Part shown: in pieces, positions 11,890 through 29,049 of the stretch | How the letters are laid out: every line of letters starts with the position of its first letter | Position numbering within the stretch: position 1 is the first letter of the stretch | Assembly (NCBI GenBank): GCA_964540355.1 | Contig: CAZIMU010000002.1 | Span: forward strand, 1-33,770 | Length of the DNA: 33,770 nt | Source: an uncultured Fibrobacteraceae bacterium | Lineage (GTDB): Bacteria > Fibrobacterota > Fibrobacteria > Fibrobacterales > Fibrobacteraceae | Direction of reading: 5' to 3' | Notes under the pieces: model-generated | What the model saw: the letters and a program-made list of their open reading frames with translations, nothing else | What the model was told of the DNA's origin: nothing | Databases searched by the model: none | Position numbers and translations under genes: made by a program

Positions 11890-12696
11890 ATGACCGAAGT
11901 CAAAATAAATCGCAATCACAAGGATAGCGTGTTCACAATGCTATTCAGCGAGCCACCTGCAGCACTGGAACTATACAATGCAGTGACGGGGCAAAACTAC
12001 CCGCCAGACACCAAAATTGAGATAGTGACTCTTTCAAACGCCATATTCAAAGGGCAATTGAACGACGTGGCTTTCGTGGTGGACGACAGGCTTGTAGTCC
12101 TGATGGAACACCAGTCATCCATCAATAACAACATACCGCTTAGGATGCTTATGTATTTGGGGAGGGAATACGAGCGAATAACTAAGGGCAAGGATTTGTA
12201 TAGAGAGAAGCTGATAAAAATCCCTGCACCGGAATTCATAGTTCTGTACAACGGTAAAGACGAGTTTCCCGATTTCAAGGAGCTTAGGCTTTCCGATTCT
12301 TTTAAAACCAAAGGCAAGGGCAATCTTGAGCTTGTCGCAAGCGTTTACAACATCAACAAGGGTCGCAATGCAGAGATAGCCAGTAAGAGTCCTGTTTTGA
12401 ACGGCTACAACGAGCTTATAGCGGAAATAAACAAGAATCGCCAGACGATGGAACTTGCGGAAGCTATAGAAGTTGCTATAAAGAGTTGTGTGAAGCGTAA
12501 CATTTTAGTATATTTCCTAGAGAAGCACGCTTCGGAGGTTTTGAATATGCTTTTTACTGAATGGAACCTTGACGATGCCCTTGAGGTTGCGAAGGAAGAG
12601 GCCCAGGATGAGTTGTTTGCTCTATGGGAAAGTGGCATTTCCGTGGCGGAAGCCAAGGAAATACTCCGCAAACAAACCCGCACAGCAACTGCATAG
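11890..12696 (+). CDS. Rpn-family recombination-promoting nuclease / PD-(D/E)XK putative transposase
   Basis: Contains HKDSVFTMLFSEP, NDVAFVVDDRLVVLMEHQSSINNNIPLRML.Y (D...E.Q nuclease core) and IPAPEFIVLYNG. GGAGG SD lies upstream. Confidence 0.85.
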   Translation: MTEVKINRNHKDSVFTMLFSEPPAALELYNAVTGQNYPPDTKIEIVTLSNAIFKGQLNDVAFVVDDRLVVLMEHQSSINNNIPLRMLMYLGREYERITKGKDLYREKLIKIPAPEFIVLYNGKDEFPDFKELRLSDSFKTKGKGNLELVASVYNINKGRNAEIASKSPVLNGYNELIAEINKNRQTMELAEAIEVAIKSCVKRNILVYFLEKHASEVLNMLFTEWNLDDALEVAKEEAQDELFALWESGISVAEAKEILRKQTRTATA

Positions 12697-12720
12697 CGGG
12701 ATTTTACCCCCTTGCGGGGG
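12685..12720. repeat. 36-nt repeat with a CCCCC-N4-GGGGG hairpin, copy 1 (inverted partner at 28323-28358)
   Basis: GCAACTGCATAGCGGGATTTTACCCCCTTGCGGGGG matches the reverse complement of 28323-28358 at 35 of 36 positions. The single mismatch is in the loop. Confidence 0.9.
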
Positions 12721-12727
12721 CTTTTTA
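12707..12727 (+). terminator. Probable intrinsic terminator of the Rpn-family gene
   Basis: CCCCC TTGC GGGGG followed by CTTTTT. Confidence 0.55.
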
Positions 12728-12745
12728 GAAAGCACAAAAAATTTA

Positions 12746-15700
12746 CTAATAGCAATCGGATCGCATTTGTGGAGTTCCTGTTTTAGATGTAACAGACAGC
12801 CATGCACCATTCGTACCAGCAGGACAAGCATTGGATTCGCAAAGTGCTACTGTACTTGATGTACATGATATAGATTTGGAAGAGCCATTGCTACAATATA
12901 TGGTGCCACTCAAAGTACTAGCATTATTGGTATTATTGTAAATTTTAAGAGGAAGATTATTATTTGTAGTACACTGATTTGTCAAATTTAAGCAATCCCC
13001 TACGGAGGGATTAGTATTATTACCAAAAGTGCTTCCAGCACCACACGTTCCTCCTCCACCGCCAGAGCTAGATGAAGCCGCTACTATGGTAATATCCCCA
13101 CATGATACCTCACCGTTGACAACTTGGTTATCACACTTGACATTTGATACAGTTATGGTGCTTGTTCCCACTGAAGTATAATATGTTGTATATGTTTCTA
13201 ATGCGGCATTATTACCGCTGCTGTTTCTCCAGTTATTTGAGTTCATTGGAGAAATTCCAGTTATATTGAAATTCGCATTGGTTTTATCGCGGGTACCGTT
13301 GGAACAAGAGATAACTATTTGAATAGGCTCTTGAACTTGATATGTACGTGGGCTAAATGCGCAAGTTATTGATGGACCCGATGAGTTGCTACTCGGCGCA
13401 CTGCTAGAACTGCTTACGGTTGGGGTGCTTCCGCCGCCGCTACCGCAATTTATGGAACCGGATGTATAGGTAAAATTGCTTATCCATGAGCCAACATACA
13501 CATAATAACCACCATCTTTCTTAGCAGTTAAAAGGCTTGGGCAACTTGCATTTCCCGCAGATCCGGCAGCCCACGACTGACCACATGCAAATTCGGAATT
13601 ATTGTTAGGCGTGATCACCGTGCCATTTACCGTGAGGCTAGCACCCTGCATCTTAGAAATATCCCTTACAAAGAAACAATTTCCAGAGGTGGGGTTGCTT
13701 GGCGGAGCAGGAACGTTCTGAGCTTTAGTGTAGTCGCCATTGCACCAGCTGGCATTATACGCACACGCCGCCGCACTGCTCAGTGGCACGGCTGAGGAGG
13801 AACTGCTTGCCCGCGAACTGCTAGACACAGAATTGCTGCTTGGGCAAGTGGTGGCACCAGTGGTAAGAGAACCTTCGCAAAGCATTCCGCTTTTTTCGTT
13901 TGACATCCTACCAAGTATTATTGGATTTCCATCGCAATTAATTCTGAACATATAAACATAAGCATTAGTTCTAGCACTAATAGTTTGGGTAGTTGTTGGG
14001 GTAAAGCCAACCCAAGCGTTATTTGAAGATAGATTTCCACCATTGGCGGCGGTATATCTGAAACTGGAATCAATTGTAATGGTAGCTTCGCCGCCGTACC
14101 CGCAACCGTATTCTATGGCTGAGAATGGTATGGAAGTGCCCGTGAAACAAGTTTGGGCTACGCGGCACCAAGGAGCGTAATCGCAATTACTGAATGCATC
14201 AACAGAGCCACACTTTATTCCATTGAAATCGCCATCTGTGCCAAAAGTAAGACGCTCTCCATCGCAGCGAATATCATACATATAAATATCTCTCTCTGCG
14301 CCCTCGCTACCAAATTTATGAGGTTCAGGAGGACTGCGATTCCACTTGACATCGGTTGGTGAAATTCTTTTATATCCACCATTACTAGCAGCATTACCTT
14401 GCCAAGAGGTGTATTTGAATTTAGCAGCTGTGGCTTCGGAATTGCGATCGCCACCGCAGCCGTATTGCGGAACTGGTATGGCGTAATCGTAACAGCCACC
14501 GGAGACATAGCACCAAGGGGCGTAAGAGGCACTTGAAAGGGAATAACCTGAGTCAGAACTGCCACCGCCGCCACCGCCACTACTTGAACTCGCTTTGCTT
14601 GAACTGCTTTTGCTTGAACTGCTTATAACAGCGGATGAGCCTGGTGGTGGGTCGTCTGAGATAGCTCCAGAATGTATTTGCAAAAAGAATGGACTTATCT
14701 TGGTGTTGTTAAATACGCACTCGTAAATGCCGTCTTCTGGAGCAGCTGGGTTATAGCTTCCACAATTGTCTGGCGGCCCAAAAGTCGGCTTTGGTTCATT
14801 TGAGGGGTAATTCAAATATAGGAAGTTGTAATAGTCTTTTAAACTAGTAATGCTGGGTTTATCAGTTTTTTTGAAACGGAGAATTCGGGGCATAACTAAA
14901 ACAGAAGCTTCAATTTTATTCTCGCTGTTTTCCTTTTCTTTGCTGATGTATTTGCTTTCCAAGTCAACCCTTAAACGTGGGCTAAGTGGAACAAAGAAAT
15001 TATCATATATCGGAGGAATACTGCTCGGAGGTAGCTTGCAACCGGTTGAATCGGGGAATGCGCAATTTCTTCCACCTTCCTCGTACATACATAAAACTCC
15101 TTGTTCCATTAGCTCTTTAACAAATTCGGAGTTGCTCTCAGTTGTTAAAAATCCATTTCCTTGAGCGTTAACATGATTCATAACCGCACATTTATTCATA
15201 AAAATATTGCCGTGCAGTTTTCTACTGTCTGTTGCATCAAATTGATTTATATCTCCATCGCTGAAAATAAAATAATTGTAATCATCGCATTTATTGGATT
15301 TACTGCAAGATTTACCTTTTGGAGTACCGGCAAGCTCAATTCTGCCCGGGAAACCATTTGGCAAATAAAGCATAACCTCTACCCCTTTTGCGGTTGGGGG
15401 AAGATAGAGATAACATTGCTGCCCATTGAGGTTGCAAGCGGATAATTCATATATAATTATGTATTTGCCAGATGTTATGGTGCCTGGGTTAGGGTTTCCG
15501 CCCCACTTGCTTGCATACTGTTTTATATCTTGATTAGTACTCGCAGGCTCATCTTTTACATAGACTACCAACCATTCGTTCCACTTACGCTCTGCGGGTT
15601 TATTTTTTGTATCATTATAGCAATTTTGAAGGTCGCTGCCAATATCTCTTGGAGGGTAAGAGGGAAAGGCAAGCTCCATAAGTTTGGGGTTGCCTCCGCA

Positions 15701-17224
15701 GTAGCTCGATAACTCCCAGCCGCATCTAGCTGTGGTCTCGCAACTGCCGGGTTTATCTTTTCTATGTACCCAGTCACTCGGATTAGTTTTTTTAGCTTCG
15801 TCATAAATAGTGGTATCAAATTGTATGGGAGGATTTGCGCAACTTAGAGTGTCATCAGAAAGTTTATCTTTCAAGTGCTTCAATGTATCTGCGTACCAGT
15901 GGGATTTAGGAGTGCAAGATGCTTGAACATTTGTGGCTTTGGTACGAATTTGAATGTTGTTGTTATCTTTAAAGCAAGCCGCAGATGGGGCTGTGGAACA
16001 ATACGAGGGCGCACTAGAAGTAATTTTTGTCATATTCCCTGGTACGCAAACAGTATCGGTTGTTTTACTGCCAAGGAATGGAACGGGCTTTGATATTCCA
16101 TCACTAGGAATTGTGCCTGTCAAGGCATTTTTAATATACGCATTTCCATAAACCGCAAGAGAATCGGTGTTATTTTGGGCAGTTCTTGTAAGGGTAATGG
16201 TTCCAGCATCCATAACTAAATTTTTTGCAACACTAAAACCTAAACCACCTCCGCCACTATTTGTCCAATATTTAAAATTTCCCTGAATAGTGCTATTTCC
16301 GCCTATTGATACTACTCCGCCACTAGCTTGTCCAGCACAACCACCAGTTCCGCCAGTGGCACCGTTATTTATGCTCTCGTTGGGATTTACTCCGCCTTTC
16401 AAATAAGCGTCTCCAGTGATATTTATAGCACCTTTAGGATGAAATTCTTTTTCCACATATAAATTGCCTCTTATATTATCATTGCTTAGGGAGCCAGTTG
16501 AGCAAAAATCAAAATCGCCTGTGGAATATACATCTCCATAAACATCTATGCCATGATTTGCATAATAATTTCCATCTAAAACCAAATAACCAGGTTTTGC
16601 TGCACTTCCTATTTTAATCGAATTTAAAGCTTGACCACCTTTGTTTTTAATTGCCACGTCTTGGGTTACAACCGCTCTCGCTGATTCTATCTCGTTCACT
16701 GTTCCCATATTTCCCCAAAAGTCTTCATCGTAGTCTGGGCATAATGTTTTTTTTGTTTGAGACCCTTGAAAAGCCAGTTTGTATAAGCCATTCACGCTGT
16801 AAATTGCAGTTTGCTGTACTTTTGAGCCATCTCTGCCCACGCCAATGCTTTGGAATTTCAATTTGATTTTGCTTTTGTTAGACGTGTCTATGCCTGTTAG
16901 GTACACTCTATAGTATATGTTGTTAGGGTTGTTGTTTAAGTTTCCCAGCACATTATTGTTATTATTTGTTAGTTCATAAGCTTTTTTATTGTTTGCTGTT
17001 GAATAAAAATTCTTTACCACTGCGCCCACATCAGGTGCTTTGTAAGAAAGCCAAGCGTAAACGGCATCTAAGCCGGCTTCGCTCGCCTGATACGCCTCGC
17101 TCTGTTTTAAGCGGCTACCGCTTGCAAAGTTTTCAGAGCCAATCCATTTATACACAACCACACCTGCCGTGGTTGCCGCAAGCATAAACATCAAAACAGC
17201 GATTAAAGAAATACCGCGTTTCAT
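12746..17224 (-). CDS. Giant (1492 aa) PilX/GspK-N-terminal-like pseudopilin fusion; putative pilus-tip adhesin, left paralog
   Basis: N-terminus MKRGISLIAVLMFMLAATTAG (PilX_N-like hydrophobic helix without a G-F cleavage motif). ATGA overlap with the upstream PilW-like gene. Gly-rich repeat core, Ser/Gly linkers and Cys-bracketed C-terminal modules. The first ~850 aa are paralogous to 23060-28237. Confidence 0.8.
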   Translation of the reverse strand: MKRGISLIAVLMFMLAATTAGVVVYKWIGSENFASGSRLKQSEAYQASEAGLDAVYAWLSYKAPDVGAVVKNFYSTANNKKAYELTNNNNNVLGNLNNNPNNIYYRVYLTGIDTSNKSKIKLKFQSIGVGRDGSKVQQTAIYSVNGLYKLAFQGSQTKKTLCPDYDEDFWGNMGTVNEIESARAVVTQDVAIKNKGGQALNSIKIGSAAKPGYLVLDGNYYANHGIDVYGDVYSTGDFDFCSTGSLSNDNIRGNLYVEKEFHPKGAINITGDAYLKGGVNPNESINNGATGGTGGCAGQASGGVVSIGGNSTIQGNFKYWTNSGGGGLGFSVAKNLVMDAGTITLTRTAQNNTDSLAVYGNAYIKNALTGTIPSDGISKPVPFLGSKTTDTVCVPGNMTKITSSAPSYCSTAPSAACFKDNNNIQIRTKATNVQASCTPKSHWYADTLKHLKDKLSDDTLSCANPPIQFDTTIYDEAKKTNPSDWVHRKDKPGSCETTARCGWELSSYCGGNPKLMELAFPSYPPRDIGSDLQNCYNDTKNKPAERKWNEWLVVYVKDEPASTNQDIKQYASKWGGNPNPGTITSGKYIIIYELSACNLNGQQCYLYLPPTAKGVEVMLYLPNGFPGRIELAGTPKGKSCSKSNKCDDYNYFIFSDGDINQFDATDSRKLHGNIFMNKCAVMNHVNAQGNGFLTTESNSEFVKELMEQGVLCMYEEGGRNCAFPDSTGCKLPPSSIPPIYDNFFVPLSPRLRVDLESKYISKEKENSENKIEASVLVMPRILRFKKTDKPSITSLKDYYNFLYLNYPSNEPKPTFGPPDNCGSYNPAAPEDGIYECVFNNTKISPFFLQIHSGAISDDPPPGSSAVISSSSKSSSSKASSSSGGGGGGSSDSGYSLSSASYAPWCYVSGGCYDYAIPVPQYGCGGDRNSEATAAKFKYTSWQGNAASNGGYKRISPTDVKWNRSPPEPHKFGSEGAERDIYMYDIRCDGERLTFGTDGDFNGIKCGSVDAFSNCDYAPWCRVAQTCFTGTSIPFSAIEYGCGYGGEATITIDSSFRYTAANGGNLSSNNAWVGFTPTTTQTISARTNAYVYMFRINCDGNPIILGRMSNEKSGMLCEGSLTTGATTCPSSNSVSSSSRASSSSSAVPLSSAAACAYNASWCNGDYTKAQNVPAPPSNPTSGNCFFVRDISKMQGASLTVNGTVITPNNNSEFACGQSWAAGSAGNASCPSLLTAKKDGGYYVYVGSWISNFTYTSGSINCGSGGGSTPTVSSSSSAPSSNSSGPSITCAFSPRTYQVQEPIQIVISCSNGTRDKTNANFNITGISPMNSNNWRNSSGNNAALETYTTYYTSVGTSTITVSNVKCDNQVVNGEVSCGDITIVAASSSSGGGGGTCGAGSTFGNNTNPSVGDCLNLTNQCTTNNNLPLKIYNNTNNASTLSGTIYCSNGSSKSISCTSSTVALCESNACPAGTNGAWLSVTSKTGTPQMRSDCY

Positions 17225-18489
17225 AAACCCCCCGTTGCCGTTGCTTCTATTCCATTGTTAGGAGTTGGAATAACCATTTCAACACTGCCAACCTCTTTTT
17301 CTTTTCCTCTTTTAACTTTCAAATTGAGCTTAAATGCTTTCACATTTTTTTTATCTGCGGTCGGTGGTGTATAATTGGTATTTGTAAAGTTATAGGCTTT
17401 ATCATTTTTTTGCATTACTTTAAAATCTTCAATTTTTAAAGTACCATTGGATGCCTTGCTAGGATTGTAAAAAGAAAATTCAAATGCTATGCAGATATCT
17501 TGTGATGCGGGAACAGAAAATTCCATATAGTGATTTTCCGCATCGCTATCGCTTGTTTGCGGGGGCCAAAACATGAATCTTTTGAATACACTGTCTAAGT
17601 CTGTATATTTTGCGAGCCCTACTGCAATATGATCTTTTCCTGGCTGGAAAAAAGCCATATCATCAGGAACACCGTTATTTTTACTAATAGGCGTTCTGAA
17701 TTGAATTGCATAAACTGTGTCTTTTTTAAAATTGAATTTATGGCAAGCATTAGGACTTGTATTTGAGGCTCCAACTAGAATTTGGTTTAGATTTTTTTGA
17801 CCAGCACTATTATTTACAAAACCACTTATTTTGTTATCTGAGCTTATACCAGGAGAACTAAGTTGCTTAACTTGATTTTGGTTTCCACGGTCTATTAGTT
17901 TGAATGTTGACTCTCCAGCTTTTGGAAATAAAATATTTGGGATTACTGGTGTGCTTTCCAGCAAGGTGAATTTCTCCACTCCGGTAGCCATTGCAAGCGA
18001 ATCGGGACATTCGTCTTTGCTAATACTAGCAGATTTGGGGCATTTTGTATCGTCAAGTTGTTCGCATCTGCGCCAAAGACTGCTGTCTGGTTTTACTTCC
18101 CAAGTTATTTTCAACACTGCGCTGCAAGTTCCATCGTCCTTGTAATGTATCTTGTGGAATATAAGCTTGTGAAAATTAGCATTGCTTTTATCCAAATTGT
18201 AAGAGCTTGAATCAGGTTGGGGGGTTGCGGTTAAATTGTAGTAAACTTTTTCGGCTATCAAAAAATTATCGGTGGTATTATTGACTTTCCAGCTTTTGGC
18301 ACCCAACTGAGAAATATCTTCTTTTAGGATTGCTGCCACTTTATTGACTTCCTCTGTTGCTTTTGTCATATTTTGGGTTCTAACCCTCATGCTGGTGGAA
18401 TCGCTAAAAGCACGGCCTGCAACGATTATTATAAAACTCATTATCGCCATATACACAAGAAGCTCTATAAGTGTAAATGCTTTTTTCAT
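17221..18489 (-). CDS. PilW/GspJ-like minor (pseudo)pilin, left paralog
   Basis: MKKAFTLIELLVYMAIMSFIIIVAG is a prepilin N-terminal cleavage/methylation motif. ATGA overlaps at both ends. Confidence 0.85.
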   Translation of the reverse strand: MKKAFTLIELLVYMAIMSFIIIVAGRAFSDSTSMRVRTQNMTKATEEVNKVAAILKEDISQLGAKSWKVNNTTDNFLIAEKVYYNLTATPQPDSSSYNLDKSNANFHKLIFHKIHYKDDGTCSAVLKITWEVKPDSSLWRRCEQLDDTKCPKSASISKDECPDSLAMATGVEKFTLLESTPVIPNILFPKAGESTFKLIDRGNQNQVKQLSSPGISSDNKISGFVNNSAGQKNLNQILVGASNTSPNACHKFNFKKDTVYAIQFRTPISKNNGVPDDMAFFQPGKDHIAVGLAKYTDLDSVFKRFMFWPPQTSDSDAENHYMEFSVPASQDICIAFEFSFYNPSKASNGTLKIEDFKVMQKNDKAYNFTNTNYTPPTADKKNVKAFKLNLKVKRGKEKEVGSVEMVIPTPNNGIEATATGGL

Positions 18490-18917
18490 TTTATAATCCT
18501 CTCTTCTTTTATTTCCAGATTATTGTTTTTAAATGGCCATCTAACAGTCAAATTAACTCTTTTCGCCGATACATTCAAAGTGTCAACACCGGAATATCTT
18601 GCGTAATCGCTGCTCTCTATGGAGTTTATATTTTCTACGTCCCATGTTATGGTGTAAGTCCTTTTGTCTATTATTTTTCCGCCATTGCCTTCCCATTCTT
18701 TATCTACGGTTGCTGGACCTCCTGTTTTTATAGACTCAATTCCCAATCTGCTCAGGCTGTCCATAAAATTCTGCGCAATAATTTGAGCCGCATCTCTTGT
18801 GCGAATTCTTATAACCGCCTCTCTATTTCCTTTTTGCAAAAGATTCAGCCCAACAAGAAGAAATCCCAGCACAACAGCTGAGATCATAACTTCAAGAAGA
18901 CCAAATCCCTTTTTCAC
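18486..18917 (-). CDS. PilV/GspI-like minor (pseudo)pilin, left paralog
   Basis: A GTG start at 18917 gives MKKGFGLLEVMISAVVLGFLL with a short prepilin leader. GTGA overlap with the upstream stop and GGGAGG upstream. The ORF-track TTG start at 18929 is less likely. Confidence 0.8.
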   Translation of the reverse strand: MKKGFGLLEVMISAVVLGFLLVGLNLLQKGNREAVIRIRTRDAAQIIAQNFMDSLSRLGIESIKTGGPATVDKEWEGNGGKIIDKRTYTITWDVENINSIESSDYARYSGVDTLNVSAKRVNLTVRWPFKNNNLEIKEERIIK

Positions 18918-19435
18918 AAAACCTCCCAATTTGTATTTTTTGGTTTTTTTATATACGCTTTGAATGAATTTTCATTTTTTTGCTTTGCCGTGCCGCCGCA
19001 ATAATCTTTGAAGCAAGCGGCAAAATAACCTTCTTTGGTTATACCAGATACACCTATGCGAATTTCAGAAGTAGTGCCATCGTTAAAACAAGCATTGGTA
19101 TTGAAACCATCAACGGGCGAAGCGCATGAGGCAAAAAAACCTTGGCTAAGGATTTCACTGGATATTGTTTTGTATGTAGTTCCAGTCACATTAGTGTCGG
19201 CTATTATTTCTTTGTCAACTATGCGTATTCTCACTGGCTTGTTCATTCGCTTTGCATCCATTGAGGCTCTTTCTGTGAATGTTCTTATTGTTTGCGCGGT
19301 TTCCTTTGCACGGTTTATGAATATGAGTTCTGTTAGGCTAGAATAGGCAAGGGTGGAGAGTATGCCTATAATTATGACAACTACCATCACTTCCAGCAAG
19401 GTAAACCCGCTGCTACAAATCCCTCCATTTTTCAA
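18914..19435 (-). CDS. FimT/FimU/GspH-like minor (pseudo)pilin, left paralog
   Basis: ...GGICSSG|FTLLEVMVVVIIIGIL carries the prepilin motif, with GspH-like NRAKETAQTIRTF..A downstream. The only available start is TTG at 19435, with no SD. It abuts the palindrome after the recombinase stop. Confidence 0.75.
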   Translation of the reverse strand: MKNGGICSSGFTLLEVMVVVIIIGILSTLAYSSLTELIFINRAKETAQTIRTFTERASMDAKRMNKPVRIRIVDKEIIADTNVTGTTYKTISSEILSQGFFASCASPVDGFNTNACFNDGTTSEIRIGVSGITKEGYFAACFKDYCGGTAKQKNENSFKAYIKKPKNTNWEVL

Positions 19436-19454
19436 AACTGCCGCGCTGGCAGTT
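19436..19454. repeat. Perfect 7-5-7 palindrome AACTGCC-GCGCT-GGCAGTT; candidate recombinase core site (left) and/or terminator hairpin
   Basis: Read directly from the sequence. It overlaps the recombinase stop codon and abuts the TTG of the FimT-like gene. 19436-19450 is a 15/15 inverted match to 20554-20568. Confidence 0.6.
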
Positions 19455-20421
19455 ATCTAAAGTAATTTTCGTTCAAGAATTTCACCCATTCTTTGTGAAC
19501 TTTTACCATCCCTTCAAAACCCGCGTCACTCTCGCTAAATACGAAGTCCGCATAGTGTTTCAAGGTGATGTTTATGTTCTTGTGACCAAGCATTTTTGAA
19601 ACTCTCACAATATCAAAACCAGCACTCAAAGCTTGGCTTGCGAAGGTGTGCCTGAACCTGTGGCAATGTATGTTTTTTATGCCTGTTTGAAAGGAGCATT
19701 TTTTTAGCAGCTTTTGGCTTCTGAGATTGAACTTGCGACCGCTGTTTTCCTCAAAAATATGCGCTCGCTTGTAAATTTCAAACATGGTGCTGCTAATGGG
19801 TATTTTCCTCGCCCTGTGCTGCGTTTTTGCGTCTATAACCCCTGAAATTTTTTGAGGAAACACAAAAAGCATTTTCTCCTTGATATTCCACCATTCCTTG
19901 GTCATAAGGGTGGCAGCTTTGCTCTCTATGCCAGTCAAGAGCATAAGCAGAATCATATCGTGAAAATGGGGGTATCTTTTTAGCCATTTTAAGAGGATTT
20001 TGCACTCTTCAATGGAAAAAGGAGTCACGAGCCTTGTATTCTCGCTGGTTTCCGATACGTTTATGCTTTCAAAGGCAAAATTCGGTGCCTGCCCAAGGAA
20101 TCTCTCTGCAAACTTTATGATTGACCTTATCCTCAAAAGTTCCTTGTTTATGGTTGAGGCAGATTTTTTGCCCCTCCATTCCGCATAGCTCCTGGCCTTT
20201 TCCCTAGTTAAATCGCCATAATAGACTATTTTTTGGCTGGAAAACCACGTTTTTATGGTGTAAACTTGCCTTTCAACCTGAGTTTTCCAACTTTTTTTAG
20301 CTTTGGCTGTTTCAGCGAAATCCGCTAGGTAATTTTCCAGTATTTCGCCCCACTTTCTACGCTTTTCCCTTAGGTTTGTAATGCTCAAGAGAAAATCACC
20401 CAAAATTAACTTTTTTTCCAA
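19453..20421 (-). CDS. Tyrosine-type site-specific recombinase/integrase
   Basis: C-terminal HCHRFRHTFAS (HxxR box) and LGHKNINITLKHY (His plus catalytic Tyr). TTG start preceded by AGGAGG. The box I arginine is not evident (LLTGIESKAA). Confidence 0.8.
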   Translation of the reverse strand: MEKKLILGDFLLSITNLREKRRKWGEILENYLADFAETAKAKKSWKTQVERQVYTIKTWFSSQKIVYYGDLTREKARSYAEWRGKKSASTINKELLRIRSIIKFAERFLGQAPNFAFESINVSETSENTRLVTPFSIEECKILLKWLKRYPHFHDMILLMLLTGIESKAATLMTKEWWNIKEKMLFVFPQKISGVIDAKTQHRARKIPISSTMFEIYKRAHIFEENSGRKFNLRSQKLLKKCSFQTGIKNIHCHRFRHTFASQALSAGFDIVRVSKMLGHKNINITLKHYADFVFSESDAGFEGMVKVHKEWVKFLNENYFR

Positions 20422-20508
20422 AAAAGCCCTCCTGATTTGAATTTTTGTCCAGAAAATAATATATATTTATATATGAAGGACATTTTGATTTTTGCGTGTG
20501 GAGTAAAC
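20422..20508. promoter_or_regulatory. AT-rich divergent control region between the recombinase and the right FimT-like gene
   Basis: 87 bp containing AATAATATATATTTATATAT, the SD for the recombinase (minus strand) and a GGAG SD 5 nt before ATG 20509. No experimental support is available. Confidence 0.4.
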
Positions 20509-21102
20509 ATGAAATTTGCCATTTACAGAACCTCTGAGCGGGCTTTGAAAAAAGCCAGCGCGGCAGTTATACAAAATGGTCGGATTTATACTGGGTTTAC
20601 TCTGTTAGAAGTAATGGTGGTGGTATTAATCATAGGTATTCTTGCAACACTTGCTTACTCAAGTTTAATTGAATTAATTTCCACCAACCGCGCAAAAGAA
20701 GTGGCGCAAACAATAAGAACGTTCTCGGAAAGAGCTTTGATGGATGCAAAGCGGCAACACATGGTTGTTAGAATATGTATAAAAGACAATGAGATAAGAT
20801 CCGAAAACCCTACGGAACCTAACGCGACCGTTAATTGCGGCGAAGGAAAAATAATTTCTAGCGAAGCTTTTAGCAATAGTTATAGGGCAGAAAAAAATCC
20901 TCCAGTGTCCGATAAAAAAGATTTCGAAAACCTTGTTACAACCGAAGTTCGCATAGGTCTATCTGGAATAGCTAAGGAAGGTTATTTTGCCGCCTGCGAT
21001 CCTAGAGGCTATTGCGGTGGTGCGGTGAAAGCGAATGATGATAATTCATTAAGAGCATACATAAAAAGAGGGAAAAATTCAACAACGTGGGAGGCTTTGT
21101 GA
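20509..21102 (+). CDS. FimT/FimU/GspH-like minor (pseudo)pilin, right paralog
   Basis: ATG with a GGAG SD and a 29-aa leader MKFAIYRTSERALKKASAAVIQNGRIYTG|FTLLEVMVVVLIIGIL. Paralogous to 18914-19435. The ORF-track start at 20437 was rejected. Confidence 0.8.
   Translation: MKFAIYRTSERALKKASAAVIQNGRIYTGFTLLEVMVVVLIIGILATLAYSSLIELISTNRAKEVAQTIRTFSERALMDAKRQHMVVRICIKDNEIRSENPTEPNATVNCGEGKIISSEAFSNSYRAEKNPPVSDKKDFENLVTTEVRIGLSGIAKEGYFAACDPRGYCGGAVKANDDNSLRAYIKRGKNSTTWEAL
20550..20568. repeat. Candidate recombinase core site (right): AAAAGCC-AGCGC-GGCAGTT
   Basis: The 15-mer GCCAGCGCGGCAGTT (20554-20568) is the exact reverse complement of 19436-19450 and occupies the same reading frame (A S A A V) in both FimT-like genes. 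The left arm matches the ideal palindrome at 5 of 7 positions. Confidence 0.55.
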
Positions 21103-21584
21103 AAAAAGGTTTCGGTCTCCTTGAAGTTTTGGTAGCCGCGATTGTGCTTGGGTTTTTAGTTATGGCGTTAAATAGGTTGCAACTAGGAAACAGAGAAGCA
21201 ATTTTACGCATAAGGACACGCGATGCCGCCAATATCATTGCACAACACGTTTTAGATTCGCTCGGAGCATTGGGCGTAAATGCACTTCCGAATGAGGAAA
21301 AAATAATAGACGACAACCCAGACGATCCCGAAGGAGGTCGTAAATATGCTTTTGGGGGAAAAGACGATAAAAGTGAAATGAAATATTACGTAACTGTAGA
21401 ATACAAGCCTTTAAGCAATCCCGACAATCCCGATAATTTCATAGATGCAAACACACATGAAAATGAAGGTACCAATTTAGTTTCAGCGAGTTCCCAATAT
21501 TTTGCTAGAAACATTCAAGCAACCGTTAAGTGGAAATTTAAAGACACATACCAATCCATAAAAATGTCAAAGGTGGTGAGGTGA
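21099..21584 (+). CDS. PilV/GspI-like minor (pseudo)pilin, right paralog
   Basis: GTG 21099 gives MKKGFGLLEVLVAAIVLGFLV. GTGA overlap with the upstream stop, the same arrangement as the left paralog. Confidence 0.8.
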   Translation: MKKGFGLLEVLVAAIVLGFLVMALNRLQLGNREAILRIRTRDAANIIAQHVLDSLGALGVNALPNEEKIIDDNPDDPEGGRKYAFGGKDDKSEMKYYVTVEYKPLSNPDNPDNFIDANTHENEGTNLVSASSQYFARNIQATVKWKFKDTYQSIKMSKVVR

Positions 21585-23050
21585 GTATGGGGAAGCATAG
21601 CAAATCAGGTTTCACCCTAATAGAACTCGTAGTCTATATAGCTATAATGAGCTTCATAATAGTTGTGGCGGGGCGGGTTTTTAGCGATTCAACCTCTATG
21701 CGTGTACGTAGCCAAAATTTGCTCAAAAGTAGCTCAGAAATTGGCAAACTATCGAATTTGCTAACCGAAGACATTTCACAAATGGGTGTTAAGGCTTGGG
21801 GATCAATTACCACCTGTGAGACTAAAGACAACTACGACAATTGTTACAGAGTCATTTCGCATAACAAGGTATATATGAACGCTGACAACATTGTAAGCAA
21901 TTTAAGAGATTCCTCGTCTTATATACTTGTAAGGAGGAAAATAAATGACCGTTTTGCTGATAGCCTTGTTTTTAGAAAAGCCGTGTTTGATAAAGACGGT
22001 AAATTTATAGCCGTTCACGAGATAGCTTTGTACACCAGCAGAAACGGAGATAGAGACAGCCTTTTCCGCAAATGCCGAGAAGTGGACAGAATTTGCCCAC
22101 AAGAAGCCCCTGAACCTTCTAAATTTTGCCTAACTAACACAACGCAATATAACGATTGTCCTTCCAAAAGCAACATAAACGATGCTCCGAAGGTCTTGAT
22201 GGCAACCGATATTACAAACTTCAAGCTCACCCCTTCTACAACAGGGCAAGAGGTGCCACTTTTCGATGACCAATTTGGCCTATATTCTCCGCTGCCATCT
22301 GGTGATCTGAAACGACCAGGAAAATGCGAAAACAATAACACCGAAACGAAAGTGTCTGAGTTCATATCAAATTATGCTGGCGATAATAATCCACCATCAG
22401 GAAATGCAAAACACGAGCTTTATCTCAGTGATAAGCTCTCGCAAAATTGCGAGACTTGGACGAATTTAGACTGCAAGGAGATGACTTTCGGTGGACAAAA
22501 AACCTACGTAGTTGAGTTCAAAATGCCCTTCAATAATGACGAAAGTACTCAATTCCAACCCAGTAGAGACCATCTATCCATAGGACTTAGAAACAAACAG
22601 GGAACCAAAGTTGATGGTGCGCCCGCAGATGTTCTCTTCTATCCGCCACAAGACATTGCCTCTAGAGATATGGTAAGGCATATTGAGTTTCCTATAAAAA
22701 AAAAGAAAGAGGAATCTATAAAAGCTTGTGTTGCAATAACTATGGCTTTCTATTCCCCAACGGCAAGCAATGGAGAACTTACGTTTGAAGGTTTTAAAGT
22801 GTTCCGCAAAACAGACGAAAGTTTTGATTTTCCAGAATCAGATGTGGCAAGCTTTGGTATATGCGAACCTACAGGTAATTGCACCACTGAGCAAAAAATA
22901 AAAGAGAGAAGAAGTGTGAAAGCCTTTGAGCTTATGGTGGAGATGGCTATAGGCAAAGAGGAAAGAAAATCTGGAACATTCTCACAAAAGGGAAGAGGAA
23001 TTATAGTAGCAACCCCTAACAATGGCGTGAGCGTTACAGTAGAAGAGTAA
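21581..23050 (+). CDS. PilW/GspJ-like minor (pseudo)pilin, right paralog
   Basis: ...HSKSG|FTLIELVVYIAIMSFIIVVAG carries the prepilin motif. The start is GTG 21581 (GTGA overlap) or ATG 21587. Confidence 0.85.
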   Translation: MSMGKHSKSGFTLIELVVYIAIMSFIIVVAGRVFSDSTSMRVRSQNLLKSSSEIGKLSNLLTEDISQMGVKAWGSITTCETKDNYDNCYRVISHNKVYMNADNIVSNLRDSSSYILVRRKINDRFADSLVFRKAVFDKDGKFIAVHEIALYTSRNGDRDSLFRKCREVDRICPQEAPEPSKFCLTNTTQYNDCPSKSNINDAPKVLMATDITNFKLTPSTTGQEVPLFDDQFGLYSPLPSGDLKRPGKCENNNTETKVSEFISNYAGDNNPPSGNAKHELYLSDKLSQNCETWTNLDCKEMTFGGQKTYVVEFKMPFNNDESTQFQPSRDHLSIGLRNKQGTKVDGAPADVLFYPPQDIASRDMVRHIEFPIKKKKEESIKACVAITMAFYSPTASNGELTFEGFKVFRKTDESFDFPESDVASFGICEPTGNCTTEQKIKERRSVKAFELMVEMAIGKEERKSGTFSQKGRGIIVATPNNGVSVTVEE

Positions 23051-23059
23051 GGAGGTTTT

Positions 23060-26000
23060 ATGAAACGCGGTATATCCCTAATAGCTGTTTTGATGTTCAT
23101 GCTTGCCGCTACCACGGCGAGCATAGTCATTTTCCGTATGCTCAGTTCGGAAAATTTCTCCAGCGGAGCGAGGCTCAAAGCAAGCGAGGCTTACAAAGCA
23201 AGTGAAAGCGGCATAGATGCGGTGCATAGCTGGCTGGCAAACCGCGGTGTAGAAGCGGCTGAATTGGTTACTCAATATATGAATCAATCAACTAGATACC
23301 CTTTGAAGATAAACTACGGTGACCCTAATGTTTTTGAAGCTTATGTTATTGGAGCGGATGCTTCGGGTGGAAATGGCAAACCCGTGAGATTGAAAATTCT
23401 TGTGGAAGGCAAGGGAAGAGATAAATCTGTAGTTAGCCAAACAGCAATACTAAAAGTGAGCGGATTGTATAGAACATCAATAAACCCTATAGGCGACATT
23501 CCTGAATCGGATCCGGACGATGTAGATGATCCGCCGCCGCAGGATAATTGTACGCCAACACCTAACCCAGAACCGCCAGTATGCCAGGCAGATCCAATCA
23601 AACCACCATCAACTGGGAAATGCGCTCTCCCTGATTTATGGGGTAATATGGCAACGGTGGGTAGAATAGACGCTAGGACAATGATTATAACCCAAACAAC
23701 TGACGAGTGCAACGGTGGCGGCCAGGGTCTCAATTCCATTAAAATAGGCAAACCTGATTCAGCTGGTTATTTGATACTAGACGGAAATTTTTACGCAAAT
23801 AATGGTATAAATATTTATGGAGATTTGTACGCAAATGGAGCATTTTTTATGTGCGCAAGCGGTAGTGATTGGATAAAAAAAGACAGAAACGGCAAAGGTG
23901 GCAATTTATATGCTAAAGAGTTTCATCCCATGGTTTCCTTTGGTACTCTACTCATTGAAGGCTCGGCATATTTTGCGGATAGTGTGAATCCCAATGTTTT
24001 GCCTAAAAGAGTTTGCAATCCGGCTGGCGGAAATGCACAGCTTGGCTGCCTAGGTGCTTTAGGCGGAGCTGTAAATATTAAAGGCAATACCACTATTAGG
24101 GGACCATATTTTGCTTATACAGGTAACATTTTTTATCAAAACGACTGGCAAAATTGGGGTGGCAATTTGAATTTTAATATGGAAGGTAACTTGGTTATGG
24201 ATAATGTTTCTCATATGAGTTTAAATTATGAAGATAAGGACAATACTTCCTCCAGCAAATTTGAAGTAAAGCAAAATGCGTATGTTAAACAATTTACTAC
24301 CAATCAAAGTCAGAATAAAAATAATGATTCTAAATCTGGGCTTTGGCCTACATTTAATAATTTGTGTTTGGGCGTTGATTATGATGGAACTAAACCGAAT
24401 TATTCCCAAAAGGGTTCAAATCCAAAATTTAATTTTAAAGCAAATGGTACAATAGGGAAGTGCAATGCTAATGCGAGCTGGGGTGCAGATGAGTTGAAAA
24501 ACTTAAAAGAGGAGCTAGAGCTTTCAGGAAACATGACACAGAGCTGCCAGAGACCTCCAGTAAAATTTGATATGAAGATTTATAATGAGGCAAAAAAAAC
24601 TACTCCTGCGAAATGGGTACATAGGGATAACCAGCCTGGGGGATGCGCCTCTGGTTCTGGGCAAATGAATCTATCAAAGGAATGGTCACCTTTATTGACC
24701 GAACTTAATACGTGCTGGAAGAGCAAGAAGTCAGACGAAATTTACAAGAATGACCCAAGCGACAAAAATGAATGGATTGTTATTTATATAAAAGATAATT
24801 ATAATTTTCAAAGAGTTAATGGAAATCTGGGCGATGGCAAATATATTATAATATTTGATTTTGAAAAAAAAATTCCGTTTGACCCTGCTAACCCATACGG
24901 TATCCAATATTTATATCTCCCGCCAACTGGTAAAAATGCAATCGTTATGCTTTATTTTCCCAAAGGTTTTAATGGTAGAATTGAACTAGATGGAAATGAA
25001 AGTGGAAAAATAGCACAGCAATCGGAGTATAACTATTTTATTTTTAGCGATGCAGATATAAGGGAATTTAACACGACAGCAGATAGATTTTTACACGGAA
25101 ATGTTTTTATGAACAACTGCGCAAAGATAAATTTGCCAAGTTCTGCAACCAACCCATATTTTTACTCCAGAGGCAACGATGCCTTTGTGGACCAACTGAT
25201 GGAGTCTAACATTTTATCTGCCACCGAACACTGCCGTAACTTCACCAGCGATAACAATAACACCAATATAACATACACGCTCGAATGTACTTCTCCTCCA
25301 GAAAAAGGCTTTGTGGGCGAGGCAATAAAACCGCCAACAGTTACCTGTAAAGGTTCCAACGGCATATCCAAAACTTGCGGTTTTGATTGGGTGAATGCAC
25401 CGAGTTGGAGTTGTCCTCAGGAAGGTACATATAATGTAGGAGTAAAGGCAAATGCAAACTCAGGAAACTGTCAAAATAGTTCACCTGTTCAGTGCGGTAA
25501 AAATATTACCTTAACAATATCCAAACCGCAGAACACCACTCTCACTTGCAAGGGATTGCCTAAAAAAGGCAAGGTAGGTGAAGAAATAAGGAAGCCAAAA
25601 GTTAGATGCGGCGGCCAAACGATTGAAAGCGGTTTCTCTTTTATGGGGATGGAGGAGCCAAATTGGAAAAATCCTGTGGAGGGTTCATACACTGTAAGTG
25701 TAAAGGCAACCTCTGGAACTTGTAGTCCTAAGATCGAAGAATGCGGTACATTAACAGTGACAAAAGACGAGCCTATAGACAATAAAAATGAACCTTGGAT
25801 ACCAATATCCAGCCGCCTTGCGGTAAAGTTGGAAAGCAAGGAAATAAGCAAACAAAGAATAGACGATAGAGGTCATGATGATAATAAACTTGCTAAGTCA
25901 ATACTTGTAATGCCTCGCGTGGTGCGCATATTGGAATCGGACCCTGTTATCTCACGTAAATATATCCGCAATCGTTATTCATATATGTATATGAATGGAG

Positions 26001-28237: not shown

Positions 28238-28259
28238 ACCTTTCTACACCATTCCCCTA

Positions 28260-28279
28260 CCCTCATTTCTTTTTGAGGG
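28260..28279 (+). terminator. Weak candidate intrinsic terminator after the right giant gene
   Basis: CCCTCA, an 8-nt loop, then TGAGGG, followed by a T-rich stretch. The stem is short, so confidence is low. Confidence 0.3.
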
Positions 28280-28294
28280 CTGTTTCTCATATTT

Positions 28295-28336
28295 TGCAAA
28301 TAAATGTGAAATTGGGGCAACGCCCCCGCGAGGGGG
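28295..28336 (+). repeat. 42-bp direct repeat flanking the RAYT cassette, copy 1
   Basis: TGCAAATAAATGTGAAATTGGGGCAACGCCCCCGCGAGGGGG matches 29198-29239 at 36 of 42 positions by hand alignment. Confidence 0.65.
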
Positions 28337-29044: not shown

Positions 29045-29049
29045 ATCTA

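What the first reader, a model, noticed from the sequence alone, without database searches (positions are those of the whole stretch)
19436..20568. Candidate inversion switch moving promoter, SD, ATG and prepilin leader between two alternative minor-pilin/adhesin operons
Seen directly: (1) A 15-mer, GCCAGCGCGGCAGTT, occurs at 20554-20568 (+), and its exact reverse complement occurs at 19436-19450. (2) The left copy sits in a perfect 7-5-7 palindrome, AACTGCC/AGCGC/GGCAGTT. The right copy reads AAAAGCC/AGCGC/GGCAGTT. This is the arm-spacer-arm layout of tyrosine-recombinase core sites, and the non-palindromic spacers are in inverted orientation. (3) The ~1.1 kb between the sites holds the tyrosine recombinase gene, an AT-rich divergent control region, and the GGAG SD, ATG and first 15 codons (MKFAIYRTSERALKK) of the right FimT/GspH-like gene. 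(4) The 15-mer is read in the same frame (A S A A V) in both FimT-like genes. Homology between the two paralogs starts exactly at this 15-mer; upstream of it the sequences are unrelated. (5) The left FimT-like gene has no ATG and no SD, only a TTG abutting the palindrome, with an in-frame TAG just upstream. Inference: inverting 19451-20553 would fuse promoter, SD and MKFAIYRTSERALKK in-frame to ASAAVLKNGGICSSG|FTLLEV of the left operon. The right gene would then have no start before its G|F cleavage site. That would make a two-state switch choosing which tip-adhesin operon is expressed. In logic it resembles the Moraxella tfpQ/I pilin inversion and fimS, but here the swapped units are whole minor-pilin operons and the leader is the mobile part. 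Caveats: the left palindrome plus TTTT could simply be the recombinase terminator, and the 15-mer could be a conserved remnant of a duplication.
Basis: partly seen in the sequence, partly recalled or inferred. Interest (0 to 1): 0.9.

Follow-up and report, generated by a model that had tools for sequence, protein, structure and literature searches.

The report
Invertible switch between two pilus operons
A 1.1-kb DNA segment carrying its own recombinase, a promoter region and the first 15 codons of a pilin gene lies between two divergent pilus-tip operons, one of which lacks a proper start, and a close relative with otherwise identical sequence is found with this segment in both orientations, so this termite-gut bacterium most likely changes its type IV pilus tip by flipping DNA.

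Summary
Window 19436-19454 and 20550-20568 are inverted 7-5-7 core sites. They flank a tyrosine recombinase gene, a conserved AT-rich control region, and the SD, ATG and 15 leader codons of a FimT/GspH-like prepilin.

The source is an uncultured termite-gut Fibromonadaceae bacterium (Fibrobacterota). The same architecture occurs in all 18 related loci tested.
- The central 6 bp are identical at both sites of every locus, with 7 variants across loci.
- The leaderless gene is always in frame and stop-free from the site to the G|F cleavage point.

In a relative whose recombinase is 95% identical, contigs match perfectly over the 1275-bp segment and 6.8 kb of flank. They carry the segment in opposite orientations, with reciprocal junctions exactly at the 15-mer. 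Both recombinase-side junctions occur in one metagenome. More distant relatives also differ in orientation against conserved flanks, and some have a third silent cassette.

The window's own strain was seen in one orientation only, in three samples. Promoter activity and silence of the off operon are inferred.

The logic is known from Ureaplasma mba/UU172 and Mycoplasma vsa. Applying it to whole minor-pilin operons through a site inside the prepilin leader is a new variant.

The parts
19436..19454 (.). Recombinase-side core recombination site. On the minus strand it reads AACTGCC-AGCGC-GGCAGTT, a perfect palindrome. The inner arm contains the recombinase TAA stop.
   Evidence: It is conserved directly after the recombinase gene in all 18 related loci.
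20550..20568 (.). Leader-side core recombination site, AAAAGCC-AGCGC-GGCAGTT. The inner arm is degenerate. The core and outer arm are identical to the partner site, in inverted orientation.
   Evidence: The central 6-mer is identical to the partner's in 18 of 18 loci.
19451..20553 (.). Invertible segment, 1103 bp between the two 15-mers. The exact crossover point inside the 15-mer cannot be determined.
   Evidence: Simulated inversion. The homologous 1275-bp segment is found in both orientations in L006 versus L035/L037/L040.
19453..20421 (-). Tyrosine recombinase gene, 322 aa, TTG start with AGGAGG SD. It is carried inside the invertible segment.
   Evidence: PF00589 at E=6e-13 and weak XerC/XerA-like NCBIfam hits. 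It belongs to a lineage-specific clade of about 38 clusters at 69-93% identity, all from Fibromonadales. Arg-I is replaced by Glu.
20422..20508 (.). Divergent control region. It holds a conserved TTTG-N16-TATTTATA / AT-rich block at about 20444-20474 and the GGAG SD at 20500-20503.
   Evidence: The block is conserved at a fixed distance from the recombinase start in all loci. There is no sigma-70 consensus match. Promoter function is inferred.
20509..20553 (+). Mobile start module: ATG plus 15 codons (MKFAIYRTSERALKK) of an unusually long 29-aa prepilin leader.
   Evidence: In relatives the same leader is fused to different genes, either FimT-like or PilW/GspJ-like.
20509..21102 (+). Right FimT/GspH-like prepilin gene. 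It is currently fused to the leader, so this is the ON position.
   Evidence: N_methyl PF07963 and TIGR01708 gspH-like hits.
21087..28237 (+). Rest of the right operon. It has a PilV/GspI-like prepilin (21087-21584), a PilW/GspJ-like prepilin (21581-23050), and a 1725-aa protein with a PilX_N-like N-terminus (23060-28237).
18914..19450 (-). Left FimT/GspH-like prepilin gene, leaderless. It is open in frame from the site (ASAAVLKNGGICSSG|FTLLEV), has an in-frame TAG two codons upstream of the site's first in-frame codon, and only an SD-less TTG at 19435.
12746..18929 (-). Rest of the left operon. It has a PilV-like gene (18486-18929), a PilW-like gene (17221-18489), and a 1492-aa PilX_N-like protein (12746-17224). 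These are paralogous to the right operon genes at about 32-56% aa identity.

Best explanation
This is a site-specific DNA inversion switch. A 1.1-kb cassette carries the gene for a lineage-specific tyrosine recombinase. It also carries a divergent control region and the ribosome-binding site, start codon and first 15 codons of a prepilin leader.

The cassette is bounded by two inverted core sites, each with roughly 7-11-bp arms around an asymmetric GC-rich core. Each site lies inside the leader-coding part of the first gene of one of two divergent, paralogous minor-pilin operons. Each operon has a FimT/GspH-like, a PilV-like and a PilW-like prepilin plus a giant PilX_N-type protein.

Recombination between the sites flips the cassette. 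This fuses the promoter, SD, ATG and leader in frame to the first gene of the other operon. The previously expressed first gene then sits behind the recombinase gene without SD or a proper start.

In the window the right operon is in the expression position.

What is shown:
- the anatomy;
- conservation and covariation of the sites;
- conservation of the reading frame;
- actual inversion at these sites in close relatives.

What is inferred:
- that the recombinase encoded inside the cassette catalyses the inversion;
- that the AT-rich block is the promoter;
- that the operon not fused to the leader is functionally off;
- that the biological effect is a change of the pilus tip complex, and so of adhesion or receptor specificity.
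For: Anatomy and in-frame fusion.

The same architecture is found in every relative fetched. The recombinases are 70-95% identical and all come from termite-gut Fibromonadales.

Core covariation:
- The central 6-mer is identical at both partner sites in 18 of 18 loci.
- There are 7 different 6-mers among the loci.
- 0 of 100,000 permutations reach this.

Reading frame: in 18 of 18 loci the leaderless gene is in frame and stop-free from the site to G|F. The distances are 42, 45, 48, 60, 72, 75, 84 and 147 nt. In the 16 loci whose leader region was read, each leader ATG has an SD-like GGAG/GAGG motif upstream; none is apparent before the leaderless genes (by eye).

Direct inversion in one strain:
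- L006 versus L035/L037 has 0 mismatches in the 1275-bp segment and 0 mismatches in 6815 bp of the flanking operon.
- The orientations are opposite, with reciprocal junctions at the 15-mer.
- Within one metagenome (JGI 3300028327), L006 and L040 share 104 identical nt of recombinase 3' end plus site. They then continue into the two different operons.

Orientation differs against conserved flanks:
- L024 versus L003: outer flanks match at 123/150 and 113/150 when collinear. Inner ends match at 54/60 and 47/60 only when reverse-complemented.
- L027 versus the window: the operon orthologous to the window's leaderless operon is the leader-fused one in L027.

Family census: 36 leader-fused and 33 leaderless genes. 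The nearest neighbour shares the same state in only 38 of 69 cases.

Portability and extra cassettes:
- The leader is fused to different gene types in different loci.
- Some genomes carry a third in-frame silent cassette with a third site.
Against: - The window's own strain was found in three assemblies (ERZ27257306, ERZ27257309, ERZ27257311), always in the present orientation. The product expected for the flipped state is not on record.
- The recombinase has Glu where catalytic Arg-I is expected. A displaced Arg-I is known for the CTnDOT integrase (PMC8138268).
- No sigma-70-type promoter was detected in the control region.
- The leaderless operon is co-directional with the recombinase gene and starts 17 nt after its stop. 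Its downstream genes have their own SDs. The first gene has a TTG directly after the site, and some relatives have an ATG there. The 'off' state may therefore be leaky.
- No experiment links this recombinase to these sites.
Confidence: 0.85

Rival explanations
1. The inversion is real, but it acts as a modulator rather than an ON/OFF choice. The operon behind the recombinase gene is still transcribed by read-through. It is translated from its own SDs (genes 2-4) and from the TTG/ATG next to the site. Flipping would then change only expression level, or which first minor pilin carries the long leader.
For: - The left operon is co-directional with the recombinase gene and starts 17 nt after its stop.
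- Genes 2-4 have good SDs.
- An in-frame TTG or ATG directly follows the site in the window, L006, L011 and L024.
- In L003, L006 and L009 the ORF is open back to an ATG inside the recombinase 3' end.
- The T-run after the palindrome is not conserved, so a terminator is not evident.
Against: - No SD precedes any of these internal starts, whereas every leader ATG has one.
- Seven of 18 leaderless genes have no canonical start codon at all between the site and G|F.
- The stretch from site to G|F stays in frame and stop-free for up to 49 codons. This is needed only if it is translated from the leader.
Confidence: 0.2
2. The switch family is active, but the copy in this window is effectively locked or flips very rarely, so this strain constitutively expresses the right operon.
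For: Only one orientation was seen in three samples, and neither flipped-state protein is on record. Other strains sampled several times also showed a single consensus orientation: L024/25/26, L027/28 and L029/30.
Against: - Both sites are intact, with 15 of 15 identity.
- The recombinase ORF is intact and 93-95% identical to those of flipping relatives.
- The left gene is still in frame.
- Consensus assemblies cannot reveal minority orientations.
Confidence: 0.15
3. The inversions arise by RecA-dependent homologous recombination between the similar 5' ends of the inverted paralogous genes, as in Campylobacter fetus sap. The neighbouring recombinase would then be irrelevant.
For: The 5' parts of the two first genes are 72-79% identical over 47-212 nt (I1 and I10).
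Against: - The junctions fall exactly at the 15-mer. Homology exists on one side of it only.
- In L003 and L024 the leader is joined to a PilW-like gene in one state and a FimT-like gene in the other, with little homology beyond the site.
- A short core that is identical between partners but differs between genomes, flanked by inverted arms, is the signature of a tyrosine-recombinase site.
- The recombinase is strictly linked to the sites in every locus.
Confidence: 0.04
4. There is no switch. The two operons are a static inverted duplication. The palindrome is the recombinase terminator and the 15-mer is a remnant of the duplication. These are the first reader's own caveats.
For: In the window the palindrome is followed by TTTTG, and the RNA hairpin is possible, with a 7-bp stem.
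Against: - The window hairpin is no more stable than shuffled sequence (z = -0.08).
- The T-run is absent in relatives.
- The leader-side site cannot form the hairpin.
- Both orientations are observed in identical DNA.
- The cores co-vary between partner sites.
Confidence: 0.02

Closest known systems
[quoted passage not shown] 2009, 2011)
   Same: A short invertible segment carries the upstream region and the 5' coding end (signal peptide / anchor). It lies between two oppositely oriented ORFs. Inversion at short inverted repeats, one of them inside the coding sequence, fuses the 5' end to either ORF and gives alternating expression.
   Different: In Ureaplasma the units are single surface-protein genes, not 4-gene operons, and they are lipoproteins, not prepilins. 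The recombinase (XerC/RipX candidates) lies outside the segment. The organism is a Mollicute.
Mycoplasma pulmonis vsa/HvsR and M. agalactiae vpma/Xer1 expression-site systems (own knowledge, not checked here)
   Same: There is one expression site with promoter and 5' end. Silent start-less genes are brought to it by tyrosine-recombinase inversions at short sites in the 5' region. More than two cassettes are possible, as with the third cassette seen in L017 and L038.
   Different: These systems vary lipoprotein genes. There are many cassettes arranged as a multi-inversion array. The recombinase is not inside a minimal flip cassette.
R64 / IncI shufflon: Rci recombinase, sfx sites, PilV (PMC11852207, PMC9045228)
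   Same: A tyrosine recombinase varies a type IV pilus minor pilin / tip adhesin. The sites are asymmetric, with a conserved core and one conserved arm while the other arm is variable. The leader-side site here has the same asymmetry.
   Different: The shufflon swaps C-terminal segments behind a fixed N-terminus and promoter. Here the N-terminal start module moves and whole operons are exchanged. Homology of the recombinase to Rci was not tested.
Salmonella Hin / H-segment flagellar switch (own knowledge; Hin reviewed in PMC3798978)
   Same: The recombinase gene and an outward promoter are carried together on a roughly 1-kb invertible segment.
   Different: Hin is a serine invertase that needs Fis and an enhancer. 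Its sites are non-coding. Only one flank holds a target operon, and the alternative flagellin is controlled by a repressor.
Moraxella bovis/lacunata tfpQ/tfpI with Piv (own knowledge)
   Same: A type IV pilin is varied by an inversion whose junction lies inside the pilin coding sequence.
   Different: In Moraxella the promoter and N-terminus are fixed, and the C-terminal parts of the major pilin are swapped. Piv is a DEDD (IS110-like) recombinase encoded outside the segment.
Campylobacter fetus sap S-layer switch (own knowledge)
   Same: A single promoter on an invertible element lies between two divergent homologous genes.
   Different: That switch depends on RecA and uses about 600-bp conserved 5' regions. 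It has no dedicated site-specific recombinase.

Membership tests
Tyrosine recombinase (Phage_integrase, PF00589) | Significant match to the family profile | tested here: met
   PF00589 at E=6e-13, 49.4 bits against a cut-off of 27.1. Weak XerC/XerA/IntI NCBIfam hits. PDB profile hits to Tn1549 Int, IntI4, HP1 Int and XerA.
Tyrosine recombinase (Phage_integrase, PF00589) | Catalytic R-K-H-R-H pentad plus the Tyr nucleophile | tested here: inconclusive
   Equivalents of XerD H244, R247, H270 and Y279 are present. Arg-I (XerD R148) aligns with an invariant Glu in the motif TG[IM]E[SA]KA (hhalign confidence 7-8; MAFFT). Precedent: the CTnDOT integrase supplies Arg-I from another position (PMC8138268).
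Site-specific inversion switch (inverton) | Two short inverted repeats flank the segment, with a recombinase gene adjacent or inside | tested here: met
   This holds in all 18 loci.
Site-specific inversion switch (inverton) | Both orientations exist in an otherwise identical genetic background | tested here: met
   Met for a close relative: L006 versus L035/L037/L040, with 0 mismatches over 8.1 kb and reciprocal junctions. Not met for the window's own strain, which showed one orientation in 3 samples.
Gene-altering ('partial intergenic') programmed inversion (PMC9881135; bioRxiv 10.1101/2023.03.11.532203) | At least one repeat lies inside a coding sequence, so inversion changes the protein encoded | tested here: met
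   Both 15-mers are read as ASAAV inside the prepilin leaders. The simulated inversion yields a 193-aa chimera.
Promoter-only invertons (fimS type) | The repeats are non-coding and only a promoter is moved | tested here: not met
   The repeats are coding. The SD, ATG and 15 codons move together with the control region.
Shufflon (Rci/sfx) | Several invertible segments swap C-terminal coding ends behind a fixed 5' end | tested here: not met
   Here the 5' end is the mobile part, and the window has only two sites. Homology of the recombinase to Rci was not tested.
Piv-type pilin inversion (Moraxella) | A DEDD / IS110-like invertase | tested here: not met
   The only recombinase in the locus is a PF00589 tyrosine recombinase.
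Type IV pilus / T2SS-like minor (pseudo)pilin operon | Prepilin N-terminal cleavage/methylation motif (G|FxxxE) in the first genes of the operon | tested here: met
   PF07963 / TIGR02532 hits in three genes of each operon, with gspH-, pilV/gspI- and gspJ-like weak hits. The fourth gene has only a PilX_N-like N-terminus, judged by eye.
Type IV pilus / T2SS-like minor (pseudo)pilin operon | The products prime or cap a type IV filament and act as adhesins | not testable with these tools
   There is no functional data. The large proteins have no Pfam or PDB match.

The most novel reading that the evidence does not exclude
Termite-gut Fibromonadales have a dedicated, lineage-specific family of tyrosine invertases with a non-canonical active site (Glu in place of Arg-I). 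These enzymes move a single 'expression head' (promoter, SD, ATG and leader half) among two or three start-less minor-pilin / giant tip-protein operons. The recombination site is embedded in the prepilin leader peptide, which is cleaved off later, so the site leaves no scar in the mature protein. The population would thus hedge between alternative pilus tips, for example for different fibre surfaces, partners or phages.
Probability: 0.55. Interest if true: 0.72.

Novelty: new variant of a known kind. Interest (0 to 1): 0.66.

Why it matters
As far as the papers searched here go, whole minor-pilin / tip-adhesin sets of type IV pili have not been reported to be exchanged by DNA inversion. Known pilus variation acts on the major pilin or on the C-terminus of PilV.

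Placing the crossover site inside the cleavable prepilin leader is an economical design. Any prepilin gene can be plugged into the switch, and the mature protein carries no trace of it.

The family is confined to uncultured fibre-associated Fibrobacterota of termite guts. In this phylum type IV pili are thought to mediate attachment to cellulose (PMC4704652). The switch therefore gives a concrete, testable handle on how these symbionts vary surface attachment or evade phages.

It also provides a compact package of recombinase plus 19-bp site, with natural core variants, that could be tried as an orthogonal inversion tool.

The apparent loss of catalytic Arg-I in an enzyme whose sites demonstrably recombine is of interest for tyrosine-recombinase enzymology.

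Tried and rejected
- I searched 5.8 billion proteins for the predicted chimera of the window leader plus the left gene. No full-length hit reached 90% identity or more; the best were 74% orthologues.
- I looked up exactly the truncated right-gene product expected in the flipped state. It is not on record.
- I looked up the recombinase and the right gene exactly. They occur in 3 samples, all in the same orientation.
- Terminator reading of the palindrome: the fold is no better than shuffles in the window (z = -0.08), the T-run is not conserved, and the scan reports no terminator there.
- Sigma-70 promoter scan of the control region: nothing found. A Bacteroidetes-like TTTG...TAnnTTTG reading is only an eye-match.
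- Rfam scan of 19300-20750: only chance-level hits.
- Search for a third site or further prepilin genes in the window: none. The hit at 4579 is a chance match.
- The 40%-identical paralogous recombinase clade (P0134) is not next to pilin genes, so the switch is specific to the 69-95% identity clade.
- The P0088/P0165 cluster looked like a second same-strain flip. The operons are only 77-82% identical. Instead it revealed the third-cassette position.
- L010's flank arrangement does not fit a simple inversion. I did not interpret it.
- PDB and Pfam searches of the 1725-aa protein gave nothing useful.
Full report
**1. The observation**

The 15-mer GCCAGCGCGGCAGTT occurs exactly twice in the 33.8-kb window, at 20554-20568 (+) and 19436-19450 (-). 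Even with two mismatches allowed there are no other matches. Shuffles give 0.05 expected.

Read in the direction of the adjacent pilin gene, the left site is AACTGCC-AGCGC-GGCAGTT, a perfect palindrome. The right site is AAAAGCC-AGCGC-GGCAGTT.

Between the sites lie:
- a 322-aa tyrosine recombinase gene at 19453-20421 on the minus strand. It hits PF00589 at E=6e-13, starts at TTG six nt after an AGGAGG, and its TAA stop lies inside the palindrome;
- an 87-bp AT-rich intergenic region;
- GGAG, the ATG at 20509, and 15 codons.

Both flanking genes are FimT/GspH-like prepilins. Both read the 15-mer as ASAAV in the frame that continues to the G|FTLLEV cleavage site. The left gene has a TAG two codons before the site and only an SD-less TTG after it.

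Two facts add to the picture:
- The whole 12685-28358 region is an imperfect inverted duplication of two 4-gene operons.
- The left operon is co-directional with the recombinase gene and begins 17 nt after its stop.

**2. Source and relatives**

Exact look-ups place the sequence in three ENA termite-gut assemblies. Relatives in GTDB genomes are 'Candidatus Fibrimonadaceae / Fibrimonadales' MAGs of the phylum Fibrobacterota.

The flanks are housekeeping genes (prephenate dehydratase, RibBA, a phosphoribosyltransferase), so the locus is chromosomal.

Genome, metagenome and exact-protein look-ups gave about 30 related loci. The recombinase belongs to a tight clade of about 38 clusters at 69-93% identity. 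All come from this lineage and are annotated only as 'integrase'. The next relatives are 36-44% identical and are not next to pilin genes.

**3. Conserved architecture**

In each locus that spans the whole switch the order is the same:
- recombinase;
- a core site directly after its stop;
- a prepilin gene without a proper start;
- on the other side, a conserved AT-rich block (TTTG-N16-TATTTATA-like) at a fixed distance from the recombinase start;
- sometimes one or two small ORFs;
- an SD, an ATG and a basic leader;
- a second core site in inverted orientation;
- the rest of a prepilin leader and G|F.

The gene next to a site is either FimT-like or PilW/GspJ-like, because two gene orders exist (1-2-3-4 and 3-1-2-4). 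The leader-plus-site module is therefore portable between prepilin types.

Other minor pilins of the same operons have ordinary 3-9-aa leaders. The switch-linked genes have leaders of 25-45 aa.

**4. The sites behave as recombination sites**

I aligned 18 pairs of sites.
- The central 6-mer is identical between the two partners in 18 of 18 loci.
- Seven different 6-mers occur among loci: AGCGCG, GGCGCG, GGCGCA, GCGCCA, GCGCCG, GCTCCA and GCCCCA.
- None of 100,000 permutations of partners reaches this.

These counts are not phylogenetically independent. They still require at least six changes that each happened at both sites.

The arms extend to about 11 bp (GGATAACTGCC / GGCAGTTATCC). The recombinase-side site is always nearly palindromic. 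In close relatives the leader-side site keeps only the core and the outer arm. This is the same asymmetry as R64 sfx sites.

An RNA-hairpin or terminator reading fails for three reasons:
- The window hairpin is no more stable than shuffles (z = -0.08).
- The following T-run is not conserved.
- The leader-side site cannot fold.

**5. Reading-frame test**

In all 18 loci, the stretch from the site to G|F in the leaderless gene is in the frame set by the site and has no stop. The distances are 42, 45, 48, 60, 72, 75, 84 and 147 nt.

Eight different lengths that are all multiples of three, in sequence that often has no start codon, only make sense if the stretch is translated from the leader after inversion.

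In the 16 loci whose leader region was read, each leader ATG has an SD-like GGAG/GAGG motif upstream; none is apparent before the leaderless genes (by eye; for the window).

Simulating inversion of 19451-20553 gives:
- a 193-aa in-frame chimera, MKFAIYRTSERALKK-ASAAV-LKNGGICSSG|FTLLEV...;
- an intact recombinase;
- a right gene preceded by TAG with no canonical start before G|F.

**6. Direct evidence of flipping**

A 90%-identity protein cluster contains two versions of one gene. They are identical after the site. One begins with the recombinase-end reading (MGEIFERKVLWIT-AGAAV...) and the other with the leader (MKFAIYKTSERALKK-AGAAV...).

At the DNA level:
- Contig L006 (JGI 3300028327) and contigs L035 (JGI 3300002119) and L037 (ENA ERZ27257309) have 0 mismatches in the 1275 bp between the 15-mers. 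L006 and L035 also have 0 mismatches in 6815 bp of the adjoining operon.
- The segment is nevertheless in opposite orientation.
- The four junctions are exactly reciprocal at the 15-mer.

In the same metagenome as L006, contig L040 shares 104 identical nt (recombinase 3' end plus site). It then continues into the other operon, and it is 100% identical to L035 over 6757 nt. Both contigs break at the switch.

A 15-bp repeat cannot mislead assemblers working with k above 100. I therefore read this as one strain present in both states, including within one sample. Its recombinase is 95% identical to the window's.

**7. Orientation differences over longer evolutionary distances**

- L024 and L003 both have [operon B]-[switch]-[operon A]-[prephenate dehydratase]. 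The outer flanks match when collinear, at 123/150 and 113/150, against 85 and 83 for the paralogue control. The inner ends match only when reverse-complemented, at 54/60 and 47/60, against 28 and 33.
- In L027 the leader-fused operon is the orthologue of the window's leaderless left operon (64-67% aa identity, against 32-39% to the right operon). Its leaderless operon is right-like.
- Among 69 classified family members, 36 are leader-fused and 33 leaderless. The nearest neighbour shares the state in only 38 cases. The state is therefore not inherited stably.
- L017 and L038 carry a third site, in frame with a third start-less operon, about 8 kb further on. Some genomes can thus choose among three cassettes.

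**8. What remains inferred or speaks against**

- The window's own strain shows only the present orientation in three assemblies, and neither flipped-state product is on record. Consensus contigs cannot exclude a minority orientation.
- No sigma-70-like promoter was found. The conserved AT-rich block is my candidate promoter, by position only.
- The leaderless operon might be transcribed by read-through from the recombinase gene. Its genes 2-4 have SDs, and some relatives have an ATG directly after the site. 'Off' may therefore mean reduced, or lacking only the first pilin.
- The recombinase has an invariant Glu where Arg-I is expected. The CTnDOT integrase is a precedent for Arg-I supplied from elsewhere. 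Given that inversion does occur at these sites, the enzyme is presumably active, but this is not shown.

**9. Comparison with known systems**

The logic is a mobile promoter plus 5' coding end placed between two divergent targets. This is what was demonstrated for the Ureaplasma parvum mba locus and UU172 element. It also resembles the Mycoplasma vsa/vpma expression-site systems (my own knowledge).

Carrying the recombinase on the segment recalls Hin. Varying a type IV pilus tip protein with a tyrosine recombinase and asymmetric sites recalls the R64 shufflon, which however swaps C-termini.

In current survey terminology this is a 'partial intergenic' or gene-altering programmed inversion. 'Pilin' is an enriched target class in such surveys. 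I found no report of a switch that exchanges whole minor-pilin operons, or that places the site in the prepilin leader.

It is not a fimS-type switch, because the repeats are coding. It is not a Piv-type switch, because the enzyme class differs. It is not a shufflon in the strict sense, because the 5' end rather than the 3' end is mobile.

**10. Verdict**

I classify it as a new variant of a known kind of switch. My confidence that this element is, or very recently was, an active inversion switch is about 0.85. Interest is 0.66.

Noticed in passing
window 19924-19926 (codon E166 of the recombinase, motif TGIESKA); same column in L003-L018 and P0130-P0141: The recombinase and all its relatives have an invariant Glu where tyrosine recombinases have catalytic Arg-I (XerD R148), and an invariant Lys two residues later. 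This includes a 40%-identical paralogue clade that is not linked to pilin genes. The other catalytic residues are present.
   Followed up: partly
L017 19235-19253 and L038 118-136: A third core site (AATTGTC-GCCCC-AGCAG[A/T]T) sits after an Smr-like gene. It is in frame with a third start-less FimT-like operon and has the same orientation as the recombinase-side site. A roughly 9.5-kb inversion could bring this cassette to the leader. The window has no such third site.
   Followed up: partly
window 12685-12724 (-) and 28319-28358 (+): A 40-nt element, GCCCCCGC[A/G]AGGGGGTAAAATCCCGCTATGCAGTTGC, lies just after the last gene of each operon. The two copies are 95% identical although the neighbouring genes are only about 37% identical at protein level. 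It is found only in this strain's contigs.
   Followed up: partly
window 28364-29164 (-), with repeats at 28584-28609 and 28842-28867: An IS200/Y1_Tnp-like ORF lies between the right operon and the prephenate dehydratase gene. It contains a perfect 26-nt inverted repeat inside the ORF. L004 and L012 have no ORF matching it at this position.
   Followed up: no
window 11890-12696 (+): A YhgA-like (Transposase_31) ORF flanks the distal end of the left operon. Homologues lie at the corresponding position in L004 and, on the leader-fused side, in L017.
   Followed up: no
L003 9630-9887 (-), L006/L035 (53 aa), L011, L029 8144-8473: Several relatives carry one small ORF of 53-109 aa between the AT-rich block and the leader ATG. 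The longer ones start with a hydrophobic stretch. Being inside the invertible segment, it would be co-expressed with whichever operon is on. The window lacks it.
   Followed up: no
L005, L011, L013, L014, L015, L017: 5' UTR upstream of the leader ATG: More distant loci share a hairpin in the leader's 5' untranslated region (for example CTGGTCAGTTGTT...AATAACTGGTCAGG), followed by a GCATAGAGG-like SD region. This may be a regulatory element. It is absent from the window.
   Followed up: no
L039 2115-2540: In this locus the recombinase-side site is followed by GGGAGTC repeats and a 101-aa bAvd / 23S_rRNA_IVP-like gene before the silent operon.
   Followed up: no
window 12746-17224 (-) and 23060-28237 (+): The fourth gene of each operon encodes a 1492- or 1725-aa protein. 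Its N-terminus is PilX_N-like (MKRGISLIAVLMFMLAATTA) and it is Cys-rich at the C-terminus. It has no Pfam or PDB sequence match. These proteins vary greatly in length (770-2170 aa) and sequence between relatives.
   Followed up: partly
L003 10933-10969, L006 1244-1292, L009: In some relatives the leaderless gene's frame stays open back to an ATG inside the recombinase 3' end, giving MGEIFERKVLWIT-AGAAV.... Gene callers annotate this as a 191-196-aa prepilin. In the window, L004, L012 and L024 the same codon is TAG.
   Followed up: partly
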